Below are positions 1 to 1,061 of a stretch of DNA of 1,061 nucleotides, one piece after another. The notes beneath the pieces are model-generated. The model did no database searches. It had not been told where the DNA came from and worked only from the letters and a program-made list of their open reading frames with translations. The stretch's first letter is position 1, and every line of letters begins with the position of its first letter. Source of the DNA: Naegleria gruberi (lineage: Eukaryota); assembly GCA_000004985.1 (NCBI GenBank), contig GG739586.1. One strand, given 5' to 3'. The position numbers and the translations under genes are program-made.

Positions 1-269
1 GAAAAACTTCCCAACCCATCTAACAATAAATCTTCACAAGCTCCAAATTCAGTTTTTTTCTTTTGAATTTTAGCTATTGGAATTATAGGATTGAGAGGTT
101 TTCCAATCTTCATTGTTTGATAGGAAGGGTTTGTGGATTGAACATCATCTAACATGTCAGTTCTAAATAGGATTGTTGATTCTCCTGGAGAAATATCGTA
201 AGCATCTCCAAATTCAATAACAAATTCTCCACAACGGTTGTTCTTTCCACTGATGGAGTTGTCAAAATT
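1..269 (-). CDS. Putative downstream exon or C-terminal region of the same gene, in a different frame (frame B, codons 3..269, continuing past position 1). Non-EGF domain of unknown function. Sequence: NFDNSISGKNNRCGEFVIEFGDAYDISPGESTILFRTDMLDDVQSTNPSYQTMKIGKPLNPIIPIAKIQKKKTEFGACEDLLLDGLGSF.
   Basis: I translated the frame by hand from the plus-strand triplets. 89 consecutive sense codons precede the window edge, with no TAA, TAG or TGA. In sequence this AT-rich, such a stretch is unlikely by chance. The frame is bounded upstream by TAG TAG (plus strand cta cta at 270..275). Composition is balanced and protein-like. It is absent from the ORF track only because no stop or start falls inside the window. 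It is on the same strand as the EGF CDS and immediately downstream of it. Confidence 0.5.
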
Positions 270-343
270 CTACTACATGGAATATTTTGTTTGCTGTAGA
301 CTCCAGTTATTGTGAGGGTCATGCTATTGCCAAGATTTGATAC
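270..343 (-). other. Candidate spliceosomal intron, 74 nt, minus strand: donor GTATCA at 343..338, acceptor ...TTCCATGTAGTAG at 282..270. It joins frame A (...KKCSTQILGPPI) to frame B (NFDNSISGK...) in phase 0.
   Basis: A GT immediately follows a frame-A codon boundary (ATA|GTATCA). A pyrimidine-containing tract with tandem TAG precedes the first frame-B sense codon, so the splice is phase-compatible. Alternative: a 32-nt intron from GTCTAC (donor after ...ACT GGA, about 301..270), which is ciliate-sized. There is no direct evidence such as cDNA. The intron's base composition does not differ from the exons. Confidence 0.3.
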
Positions 344-1061
344 TATAGGAGGTCCCAATATTTGAGTTGAACATTTCTTTCCATAGTAACCAGATTGACA
401 CTTGTTACAATTAGTTCCAGTGAAATAACCATTTGATAGGTTATTGTTACATGTACAAACACCTCCTAATATACTGTCACAATATCCATTTCCAGAACAT
501 GTGATTTTTGGATCGCAATAAACATTACAATCATAACCATAGTATCCAGTTTTACAACCATTACAGTTGGTTCCATAAAAGTTTCCAGTACAAACGCAGC
601 TTCCTTTTGAGTTACATTTACCATGCCCAAAGCAAGTAACATCGTCTTGACATTTGTCAGTTTGGGGAATGGTATTACATTTAACTCCTGTATAAGGTAG
701 TTTACAAGAATCACACTGTTGTCCGTTCCAAAATCCTTTTTCCAGAGTCAAAGCACATTGACATTTATCTGGAGAAAGACAAACACCATGTGAAGAACAA
801 ACTGTTGTTGAATTGGATCGCACTCCAAAACATGAATAATCAGAGCATTTAGTTCCACTATATCCTGCATTACACTGGCATCTATCAATATCAATACAAG
901 ATCCCTTTCCACCACAAACTGAAGCATCATTAGCAGCAACATTGAAACAGATAGCAAATTCACAACTATCTCCAGTCCAACCATAAGGGCAATCACATAC
1001 TCCTGTAGAAAGACACGGACCTCTTTTAGAACAAACATTGGATCCAAGAAGGATCTCCACC
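344..1061 (-). CDS. Partial CDS (5' end beyond the window): secreted or extracellular cysteine-rich protein with tandem EGF-like and laminin-type EGF (LE, 8-Cys) domains. This is frame A of the 149..1060 ORF on the track. The frame-A tail at 149..343, which ends at TAG 149..151, may or may not be coding; see the intron and frameshift finding.
   Basis: The minus-strand frame is uninterrupted from the window edge (1061) for 303 codons. The first codon is GTG (V), written as M by the ORF caller, so the ORF is open and truncated at its 5' end. About 40 Cys fall in regular spacing. Five repeats match the EGF signature C-x-C-x2-G-[YWF]-x-G-x2-C (CDCPYGWTGDSC, CQCNAGYSGTKC, CVCTGNFYGTNC and others). 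Three of these are followed by the LE-type tail C-x2-G-Y-Y-G-x2-C (CKLPYTGVKC, CKTGYYGYDC, CQSGYYGKKC), which gives 8-Cys units. There are N-x-[ST] sequons (NST, NLS). Cys codons are strongly biased to TGT and there are no in-frame stops. Identifying these as EGF/LE folds rests on established motif knowledge. Confidence 0.85.
371..1033 (-). repeat. Tandem array of protein-domain repeats. Approximate minus-strand coordinates: EGF-like about 962..1033 (C10-C33, possibly extending upstream) and EGF-like 845..949 (C38-C72). Then three LE-type 8-Cys units: 677..832 (C77-C128), 527..652 (C137-C178) and 371..517 (C182-C230).
   Basis: The Cys spacing recurs: C-x5-C-x5-C-x(5-7)-C-x-C-x(8-13)-C-x2-C-x8-C. 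At the DNA level the GYYG-encoding segments are only loosely similar (ggatactatggttatgattgt at 527..556 on the minus strand versus ggttactatggaaagaaatgt at 371..400). These are diverged domain repeats, not recent duplications. Confidence 0.75.

What the first reader, a model, noticed from the sequence alone, without database searches (positions are those of the whole stretch)
1..343. Reading-frame switch after the EGF array: hidden 89-codon open frame versus a stop-terminated tail
Frame A stops being Cys-rich after about 371 and terminates at TAG 149..151. Its tail is short and hydrophobic-ish (ILTTPSVERTTVVENLLLNLEMLTIFLQENQQSYLELTC). A different minus-strand frame is stop-free from 269 to the window edge, and it is bounded upstream by TAG TAG at the position where a splice acceptor would sit. 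Two same-strand open frames overlapping for about 120 nt points to one of three things: (i) a GT...AG intron at 343..270 (74 nt) or about 301..270 (32 nt); (ii) a frameshifting indel or pseudogenisation between 149 and 269; or (iii), least likely, programmed frameshifting. A prokaryote-style gene caller would report only 149..1060 and would miss the true 3' part of the gene.
Basis: seen in the sequence. Interest (0 to 1): 0.6.

Follow-up and report, generated by a model that had tools for sequence, protein, structure and literature searches.

The report
Frameshifted Naegleria EGF-REJ gene fragment
The frame switch is real, but it is a small frame-shifting indel (a sequencing error or a pseudogene mutation) in a Naegleria gruberi surface-protein gene fragment, not an intron, so it is an annotation problem and not new biology.

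Summary
The window is a complete 1,061-nt stand-alone scaffold of the Sanger-sequenced Naegleria gruberi genome.

Frame A stops there, and frame B is open from 269 to the window edge.

Both frames are coding, and homology shows where the switch falls. The only two relatives of the tail are N. gruberi XP_002673696.1 (EGF + PKD-like + REJ) and a metagenome ORF. Both align colinearly in frame A down to 257/242, including a conserved Cys motif IPCSRIL. They then align in frame B from about 245/230 to the edge.

Both proposed introns (343..270 and 301..270) would delete homologous residues and a conserved cysteine. They score 10-21 bits worse than a single-shift model. In the metagenome relative the same stretch is one uninterrupted ORF. 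No slippery site or unusual RNA structure supports programmed frameshifting.

Best reading: a net one-base loss at 257..243, possibly part of a short deletion. The annotated tail and its stop codon are out-of-frame artefacts, and the true gene runs off the window into a PKD/REJ region. Whether the indel is an assembly error or a real mutation cannot be decided here. Interest is low.

The parts
258..1060 (-). Frame A coding sequence: an EGF-like repeat array (to about 371), then the first part of the post-EGF domain (GPPIVSNLGNSMTLTITGVYSKQNIPCSRILT). It is open at the 5' window edge, so the gene continues upstream.
   Evidence: Pfam EGF_Teneurin/EGF_2/EGF_laminin hits. 100% identical to N. gruberi XP_002667949.1. 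tblastn HSPs of P0004 and P0005 in this frame extend down to 257 and 242. The segment 343..260 aligns at the colinear place with 8/5000 and 49/5000 shuffles reaching the score.
243..257 (-). Frame-shift zone. The reading frame passes from A to B here (net one base missing, or two extra). It coincides with a 4-7 residue gap relative to both homologues.
   Evidence: Frameshift-aware protein-to-DNA alignment needs exactly one shift, placed at about 255 with P0004 and about 243 with P0005. tblastn frame -2 ends at 257/242 and frame -1 starts at 230.
3..245 (-). Frame B coding sequence: (G)KNNRCGEFVIEFGDAYDISPGESTILFRTD...KTEFGACEDLLLDGLGSF. This is the authentic continuation of the gene. It is open at the window edge.
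   Evidence: phmmer hits to P0004 (E 3.5e-7) and P0005 (E 1.9e-5) over query 48-125. tblastn frame -1 HSPs cover 230..3. Codon-usage log-odds favour frame B (+8.6 against -41 and -35).
3..80 (-). Start of a PKD-like (K319L-type) domain: ...PIAKIQKKKTEFGACEDLLLDGLGSF.
   Evidence: It aligns to P0004 191-209 and P0005 274-292, where weak Pfam K319L-like_PKD / PKD_4 matches begin. The family profile hits the KIAA0319L PKD domain in PDB 6nz0 at E 5e-6. Only the first ~25 residues lie inside the window.
149..242 (-). Annotated frame A tail (RTTVVENLLLNLEMLTIFLQENQQSYLELTC) with stop TAG 151..149. This is an out-of-frame reading and not genuine protein sequence.
   Evidence: No similarity to the homologues (413/2000 and 1342/2000 shuffles score as well). 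Codon log-odds -14.7 over 257..152. No Pfam hit.
270..275 (-). TAG TAG that bounds frame B upstream. It is the off-frame reading of the frame A codons Cys-Ser-Arg (277..269), not a splice acceptor.
   Evidence: Sequence reading. The C-S-R-I-L motif is conserved in P0005 (CSSLL) and P0004 (CNRLL).

Best explanation
The window is a fragment of a Naegleria gruberi gene for a large extracellular protein of the EGF-array + PKD-like + REJ-domain family. The nearest full-length paralogue is XP_002673696.1 / NAEGRDRAFT_71231.

Its reading frame is broken by one small frame-shifting indel at window 257..243 on the minus strand. The net effect is one missing base, possibly as part of a 3n+1 deletion that also removed about 4-7 codons.

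- Upstream of that point, frame A is the true frame.
- Downstream of it, frame B is the true frame and runs off the window into the PKD/REJ part of the gene.
- The frame A tail and the TAG at 151..149 used by the public gene model are out-of-frame artefacts.
- There is no intron in 1..343.

Shown: both frames are homologous to the same two relatives, colinearly, with the switch at 257..243.

Inferred: the cause of the indel. I put it at roughly even odds between two possibilities. One is a base-calling or assembly error in a tiny, presumably low-coverage Sanger scaffold. The other is a real recent mutation, giving a young pseudogene or a null allele of a multi-copy family.
For: Identity of the window:
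- the window is identical to XP_002667949.1, 'predicted protein, partial [Naegleria gruberi]', on a 1061-nt contig.
- The NEG-M assembly is Sanger-based, with 1,977 scaffolds and N50 160 kb (PMC9928731).

Homologues of the tail:
- an exhaustive phmmer search of 1.84 billion representatives finds only P0004 and P0005 as real relatives of the tail.
- P0005 carries Pfam REJ (E 9e-17) plus EGF domains.

Position of the switch:
- tblastn of both relatives gives colinear paired HSPs. Frame -2 runs to 257/242, then frame -1 runs 230..3 (Expect(2) 3e-28 and 7e-31).
- frameshift-aware alignment needs a single one-base-type shift at about 255 or about 243, and nothing else.

Model comparison:

| Test | Shift model | 32-nt intron | 74-nt intron | Annotated frame A |
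|---|---|---|---|---|
| blastp bits vs P0004/P0005 | 117/127 | 106/114 | 97/105 | 84/96 |
| HMM of the two homologues, bits | 158.4 | 148.8 | 137.2 | 121.9 |

- only the shift model keeps all three post-EGF cysteines that the homologues have.
- the residues the introns would delete align at the right place (shuffle counts 8/5000, 49/5000, 59/5000, 11/5000).

Other support:
- in contig L001 the homologous stretch (3451-3897) lies in one uninterrupted ORF, so there is no intron there in that relative.
- the candidate intron has GC 0.38, the same as the flanking coding sequence (0.37 and 0.34). Frame A is open in it and has the best codon score of the three frames.
- codon usage favours frame B downstream of the shift.
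Against: - Only two homologues exist, at about 30-35% identity. The shift can therefore be placed only to within about 15 nt, and the alignment just around it is gappy. The window lacks about 4-7 residues at the shift and 7 more residues just after it.
- A distant bacterial repeat protein (P0006, E 6e-4) aligns about 5-8 bits better per repeat to the 32-nt-intron model (TLTITG|NFDNSISGKNNRC against TVTVTYTTANSTSATGNGC) than to the shift model. The match is between T/S/N-rich strands of a compositionally biased protein with a different architecture.
- No reads, transcripts or near-identical second copy could be examined. Error and real mutation cannot be separated, and splicing cannot be excluded directly.
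- AlphaFold gave no usable model (pLDDT 30), so there is no structural support.
Confidence: 0.85

Rival explanations
1. A very short spliceosomal intron at 301..270 (32 nt, GTC...TAG, phase 0) joins ...SMTLTITG to NFDNSISGKNNRCGEFVIEFG...
For: - GT and AG are present, and the length is 2 mod 3, which restores frame B.
- The junction reads like an IPT/Calx-beta-type strand.
- The bacterial repeat protein P0006 aligns across this junction and scores 12-13.5 bits per repeat, against 5-7 bits for the shift model.
- A Naegleria fowleri study used 30 bp as the minimum intron length 'based on an assessment of predicted genes' (PMC8296547), so 32 nt is not formally impossible.
Against: - It deletes VYSKQNIPCS and makes RILTT non-coding. 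Yet YSKQNIPCSRIL aligns to P0005 FIEKDVPCSSLL and P0004 YISNLVDCNRLL at the colinear position (11/5000 and 59/5000 shuffles).
- It loses one of the three cysteines conserved in the homologues.
- It scores 10-13 bits lower than the shift model against each true homologue and against their HMM.
- The average Naegleria intron is 126-203 bp.
- The GTC donor departs from the usual GTRAGT consensus (general knowledge, not tested for Naegleria).
- Its GC of 0.34 is no different from the exons.
- The relative L001 has no intron in this region.
Confidence: 0.06
2. A 74-nt spliceosomal intron at 343..270 (GTA...TAG, phase 0) joins ...LGPPI to NFDNSISG...
For: GT...AG are present, the length is 2 mod 3, and the size is plausible for Naegleria.
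Against: - It removes 24 codons (VSNLGNSMTLTITGVYSKQNIPCS) that align to both homologues (8/5000 and 49/5000 shuffles).
- It is the lowest-scoring of the models that include frame B (97/105 bits; 137.2).
- Frame A is open across it and has the best codon score. Its GC of 0.38 equals that of the exons.
Confidence: 0.02
3. Programmed -1 ribosomal frameshifting (or transcriptional slippage) at about 257..243 produces the full-length protein from the sequence as it stands.
For: The A-to-B shift is of the -1 type (one base re-read). Both frames are otherwise intact.
Against: - No X XXY YYZ slippery heptamer in frame A anywhere in 262..229 (aca act cca tca gtg gaa aga aca acc gtt gtg gag; read).
- No homopolymer longer than AAA at the site.
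- The RNA downstream (245..150) folds no better than shuffles (z = -0.38).
- Neither homologue needs a shift at this position.
Confidence: 0.02
4. The public model is right. Translation runs colinearly in frame A and ends at TAG 151..149, giving a truncated EGF protein. Frame B is only a relic or a chance open frame.
For: - This is the GenBank/JGI model.
- If the indel is a real mutation, this truncated product is what the ribosome would make.
- Off-frame open runs of 90-100 codons occur elsewhere in the window.
Against: - The frame A tail has no homologue, poor codon usage and no Pfam hit.
- Frame B is homologous to the relatives over its whole length and has coding-like codon usage. It was therefore the selected frame until very recently at least.
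Confidence: 0.05

Closest known systems
Naegleria gruberi XP_002673696.1 / EFC40952.1 (NAEGRDRAFT_71231), 1291 aa, EGF + PKD-like + REJ-domain predicted protein
   Same: It has the same domain order over the part that can be compared: EGF-like repeats ending in ...FWTGRSCxxCxxxYxGxKCS, a post-EGF segment with the Cys motifs (V/I)PCS..L and .KC, then G.F.I.FG...PGE.T, then ...C..l.lDGs.S (PKD-like start). It aligns colinearly with window 718..3.
   Different: Identity is only about 29%. The window lacks about 7 + 7 residues around the second Cys and needs a frame shift. The REJ domain and the rest of the protein lie beyond the window and cannot be checked.
REJ-domain receptors (polycystin-1 / PKD1, PKDREJ, sea-urchin receptor for egg jelly; Pfam PF02010) and KIAA0319-like PKD domains
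   Same: The paralogue P0005 has a Pfam REJ match (E 9e-17). The family profile hits the KIAA0319L PKD domain (PDB 6nz0, E 5e-6). The window's last ~25 residues are the start of that PKD-like domain.
   Different: No REJ sequence lies within the window itself. Membership is by homology to a paralogue, not by a direct domain hit (one search found only EGF families). This is a protist architecture with a long EGF array.
Frame-disrupted gene copies in draft assemblies (indel errors, or young unitary/duplicated pseudogenes)
   Same: There is a single frame break with intact, homologous, codon-biased sequence on both sides. The annotated product ends in a short non-homologous tail. The sequence is a tiny unplaced scaffold of a Sanger draft.
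   Different: No second disabling mutation is seen in 392 codons, so this is not an old pseudogene. The cause cannot be established without reads.
Short spliceosomal introns of Naegleria (mean 126-203 bp; PMC8296547)
   Same: GT...AG pairs of the right length class (2 mod 3) exist at 343..270 and 301..270.
   Different: Removing them deletes homologous residues and a conserved Cys. They show no compositional contrast with the exons, and the relative has no intron in this region.

Membership tests
Spliceosomal GT-AG intron (343..270 or 301..270) | GT donor, AG acceptor, and a length that restores the downstream frame | tested here: met
   Both candidates start with GT, end with TAG and have a length of 2 mod 3.
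Spliceosomal GT-AG intron (343..270 or 301..270) | The removed sequence is non-coding, so the spliced product aligns to homologues better than the unspliced alternatives | tested here: not met
   The removed residues align to both homologues. The spliced models score 10-21 bits below the single-shift model and lose a conserved Cys.
Spliceosomal GT-AG intron (343..270 or 301..270) | Compositional or coding contrast with the exons; an intron at the same place in relatives | tested here: not met
   GC is 0.38/0.34 against 0.37/0.34 for the exons, and frame A is open with the best codon score. The homologous region of L001 is one ORF. The gene structure of P0005 could not be retrieved.
Spliceosomal GT-AG intron (343..270 or 301..270) | A spliced junction in transcripts | not testable with these tools
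   No RNA-seq or cDNA data are available here.
Programmed -1 ribosomal frameshift | Slippery heptamer X XXY YYZ at the shift site | tested here: not met
   None is present in frame A across 262..229 (sequence).
Programmed -1 ribosomal frameshift | A stable stimulatory RNA structure 5-9 nt downstream | tested here: not met
   The fold of 245..150 gives -16.2 kcal/mol, z = -0.38 against shuffles. Pseudoknots were not evaluated.
EGF + PKD + REJ surface-protein family (as in N. gruberi XP_002673696.1) | EGF-like repeat array | tested here: met
   Pfam EGF_Teneurin 4.4e-17, EGF_2 8.8e-15, EGF_laminin 6e-6.
EGF + PKD + REJ surface-protein family (as in N. gruberi XP_002673696.1) | Family-specific post-EGF segment, colinear with the paralogue | tested here: met
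   phmmer E 1.9e-5 and 3.5e-7 for the tail alone. Colinear tblastn and frameshift-aware alignments. HMM score 158 bits.
EGF + PKD + REJ surface-protein family (as in N. gruberi XP_002673696.1) | PKD-like domain | tested here: inconclusive
   Only the first ~25 residues lie in the window. Pfam gave no hit on the window tail. The homologues give sub-threshold K319L-like_PKD hits, and the family profile hits the KIAA0319L PKD domain at E 5e-6.
EGF + PKD + REJ surface-protein family (as in N. gruberi XP_002673696.1) | REJ domain (PF02010) and C-terminal membrane anchor | not testable with these tools
   These lie beyond base 1 of the window. The scaffold ends there.
Pseudogene | Frame disruption relative to functional relatives | tested here: met
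   One shift at 257..243.
Pseudogene | Further disabling mutations or relaxed constraint | tested here: not met
   There are no stops in the 268 frame A codons upstream or the 81 frame B codons downstream, and codon usage is still coding-like. No close relative is available for a dN/dS estimate.
Pseudogene | The indel is present in the organism's DNA and is not an assembly error | not testable with these tools
   No reads are available, and no second assembly of this locus was found. The 90% cluster of P0001 has a single member. Exact look-ups found nothing.

The most novel reading that the evidence does not exclude
The frameshift is genuine and is tolerated or decoded. The only other available relative, metagenome contig L001, also carries three frame shifts without room for introns. 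This could mean that heterolobosean EGF-PKD-REJ genes form a pseudogene-rich, rapidly turning-over surface-protein family. More speculatively, full-length proteins could be made from frameshifted genes by non-canonical recoding or transcript slippage.
Probability: 0.03. Interest if true: 0.55.

Novelty: new member of a known kind. Interest (0 to 1): 0.1.

Why it matters
The practical consequence is small. The GenBank/JGI model XP_002667949.1 ends in about 30 residues of out-of-frame sequence and a false stop codon. It should be re-annotated either as a frameshifted fragment (pseudo) or, after re-sequencing, as part of an EGF-PKD-REJ family gene.

The case also shows that 'two overlapping open frames plus GT...AG' is not enough to call an intron. 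The homologues place the switch about 15-45 nt downstream of the proposed acceptor.

No new mechanism is implied.

Tried and rejected
- **My own first impression** was that the 32-nt intron gives an IPT-like 'TITG-NF' junction. I rejected it after the true homologues showed frame A homology continuing to 257/242.
- **Pfam on every tail model:** no hit.
- **Word-indexed protein search with the tail:** nothing. With frame A it found only the window's own GenBank protein and two distant EGF proteins. With the family alignment it found nothing new.
- **Exact-protein look-ups** for the frame A ORF, P0001 and P0005: not on record, so no parent contig, no neighbouring sequence and no P0005 gene structure.
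- **Metagenome scan with the family alignment:** 15 loci, all matching only the EGF part. Most are GC-rich and none carries the tail.
- **AlphaFold2 on the 3-sequence alignment:** pLDDT 30, unusable, so no fold search was run.
- **Prokaryotic promoter/terminator scan:** at background level and irrelevant for a eukaryote.
- **A badly designed IUPAC search for slippery sites** was uninformative. The heptamer check was done by reading the codons instead.
- **Ciliate-type genetic code (TAG = Gln):** considered before the organism was known. Dropped because the source is Naegleria and 392 coding codons contain no in-frame TAA or TAG.
- **Literature search for a Naegleria splice-site consensus:** nothing usable.

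Full report
**What the window is**

The 1,061-nt window has 36% GC. Its long minus-strand ORF (1060..149, frame A) is 100% identical to GenBank XP_002667949.1 / EFC35205.1, 'predicted protein, partial [Naegleria gruberi]'. The recorded contig length of that protein is 1,061 nt. The window is therefore a complete, tiny, stand-alone scaffold of the N. gruberi NEG-M draft genome. That genome was Sanger-sequenced and has 1,977 scaffolds with N50 160 kb (PMC9928731).

**Checking the observation**

- Frame A ends at TAG 151..149.
- Frame B is open from 269 to base 1 (89 codons) and is preceded by TAG TAG at 275..270.
- The two open frames overlap by about 120 nt.

Openness alone is not remarkable. 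Only 1.5% of dinucleotide shuffles of 343..1 give an open run of 89 or more codons. However, the third minus-strand frame of this window has 103- and 93-codon open runs inside the EGF array.

What makes frame B real is the following:
- Codon usage: log-odds +8.6 for frame B over 242..1, against -41 and -35 for the other two frames. Over the overlap 257..152 the values are +4.8 for B and -14.7 for A.
- Homology, described next.

**Homologues**

Pfam sees only EGF families in frame A and nothing in any version of the tail. The word-indexed search found nothing for the tail.

An exhaustive phmmer scan of 1.84 billion representative proteins found two genuine relatives of the tail:
- P0005 is N. 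gruberi XP_002673696.1 (NAEGRDRAFT_71231), 1291 aa. It has EGF domains plus a Pfam REJ domain (E 9e-17) and a sub-threshold K319L-like PKD match.
- P0004 (with its cluster mate P0007) is a metagenome ORF on the 6.1-kb, 35%-GC contig L001.

A family profile also hits the PKD domain of KIAA0319L in the PDB (E 5e-6). The gene in the window is therefore a member of an EGF-array + PKD-like + REJ extracellular protein family. The window ends just as the PKD-like domain begins (...FGACEDLLLDGLGSF).

**Where the frame changes**

tblastn of both relatives against the window gives colinear paired HSPs:
- Frame A matches down to 257 (P0004) or 242 (P0005).
- Frame B matches from 230 to 3.
- Combined expectations are 3e-28 and 7e-31.

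Window ...NIPCSRILTTPSVE aligns with P0005 ...DVPCSSLLHPSDIS and P0004 ...LVDCNRLLETTVM.

A frameshift-aware protein-to-DNA alignment needs exactly one shift of the 'one base missing' type. It places the shift at about 255 with P0004 or about 243 with P0005, and needs no other discontinuity from 556 to 3.

The TAG TAG that seemed to mark a splice acceptor is the off-frame reading of the conserved Cys-Ser-Arg codons.

**Testing the intron models**

| Test | Single-shift model | 32-nt intron (301..270) | 74-nt intron (343..270) | Annotated frame A only |
|---|---|---|---|---|
| blastp bits vs P0004 / P0005 | 117 / 127 | 106 / 114 | 97 / 105 | 84 / 96 |
| HMM of the two homologues, bits | 158.4 | 148.8 | 137.2 | 121.9 |

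- Only the shift model aligns as one contiguous domain against the HMM.
- Only the shift model keeps all three post-EGF cysteines found in the homologues.
- The residues that the introns would delete align at the colinear position better than nearly all shuffles: 8/5000 and 49/5000 for 343..260, and 59/5000 and 11/5000 for 301..260.
- The candidate intron has the same GC as the flanking coding sequence, is open in frame A, and has its best codon score in frame A.
- In L001 the homologous stretch lies within one uninterrupted ORF.
- Mean intron length in Naegleria is 126-203 bp, with about 30 bp used as a practical minimum (PMC8296547).

One counter-signal should be recorded. A bacterial repeat protein (P0006, E 6e-4) aligns across the 32-nt-intron junction and prefers that model by about 5-8 bits per repeat. 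It is compositionally biased (T/S/A/G-rich strands), has a different architecture and is not a family member. I weigh it well below the two true homologues.

**Programmed frameshifting**

- There is no X XXY YYZ heptamer in frame A across 262..229 (sequence).
- The downstream RNA folds no better than shuffles (z = -0.38).

**Conclusion and mechanism**

A small frame-shifting indel at 257..243 separates two halves of one coding sequence. Its net effect is one missing base.

The shift coincides with a 4-7-residue gap relative to both homologues, and an in-frame 7-residue gap follows five residues later. A single 3n+1 deletion could therefore explain both the gap and the shift. At about 30% identity, ordinary loop-length variation plus a one-base error fits equally well.

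- For a sequencing or assembly error: the scaffold is a 1-kb orphan of a Sanger draft, and both halves are otherwise intact (no stops in 268 + 81 codons, good codon usage).
- For a real mutation: the only other relative with DNA available, L001, needs three frame shifts when aligned to P0005. An independent JGI assembly (P0007) reproduces the off-frame peptide upstream of the first of them. Frame-disrupted copies therefore do seem to occur in this family.

I cannot separate these two causes with the tools available and rate them about even. In either case the frame A tail and its TAG are not the gene's true 3' end. The true gene continues beyond base 1 into a PKD/REJ region.

**Comparison with known systems and novelty**

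The gene is a new, mis-annotated and frame-disrupted member of a known kind of protein: EGF/PKD/REJ receptors, with the closest paralogue in the same genome. The frame switch is an ordinary indel. Nothing requires a new mechanism, and interest is low.

**What failed or led nowhere**

- Structure prediction (pLDDT 30).
- Exact-sequence look-ups of the locus and of the P0005 gene.
- The metagenome scan, which returned only EGF matches.
- The profile search.
- A mis-designed pattern search.

Noticed in passing
L001:3096-5436 (ENA metagenome contig k141_1018008, 6141 nt, GC 35%): The only non-N. gruberi relative of the window's tail is itself frame-disrupted. Alignment to N. gruberi P0005 needs three shifts: 1 extra nt near 3183-3256 inside an EGF repeat, 1 extra nt at about 4450 beside an A4 run, and 2 extra nt at about 5250. 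None leaves room for an intron. A separate JGI assembly (P0007) reads the same off-frame peptide upstream of the first shift. The family may be rich in pseudogenes.
   Followed up: partly
window 466..1059, minus strand, third frame: The off-frame of the EGF array has stop-free runs of 103 and 93 codons (ORFs 748..1047 and 466..714). Long open off-frames are normal in this Cys/Gly/Asn-rich, AT-rich coding sequence and are not evidence of overlapping genes.
   Followed up: yes
window 231..257 against P0004 115-134 / P0005 198-215: Apart from the frame shift, the window lacks two short segments that both homologues share (..(M/V)YG.. and ..(L/Y)LDK..) around the second post-EGF cysteine. This is either lineage-specific loop shortening or part of the same deletion event.
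   Followed up: partly
window 3..260 (conceptual protein) against P0006: A GC-rich bacterial-looking repeat protein (P0006, 1157 aa) shows weak repeated similarity to the frame B segment ...NNRCGEFVIEFGDAYDISPGESTILFRTDMLDD. The P0006 pattern '...C.ADFVGA.GTLTFAPGET.K.V.V..LD' looks Calx-beta-like from memory only. This hints that the post-EGF domain is a beta-sandwich of that general type. Pfam gave no Calx-beta hit on the window or on P0004/P0005.
   Followed up: partly
window 1019..1060: The public model starts at PCLSTG (window 1018), although frame A is open to the window edge at 1060 (VEILLGSNVCSKRG...). The gene therefore also continues upstream of the scaffold.
   Followed up: no
P0005 (N. 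gruberi XP_002673696.1), C-terminal region: Just before its predicted hydrophobic anchor, the paralogue has a motif (...YAVCRCKQLTNVFIMETV...) that resembles a GPS autoproteolysis motif, judged from memory. Pfam reported no GPS domain.
   Followed up: no
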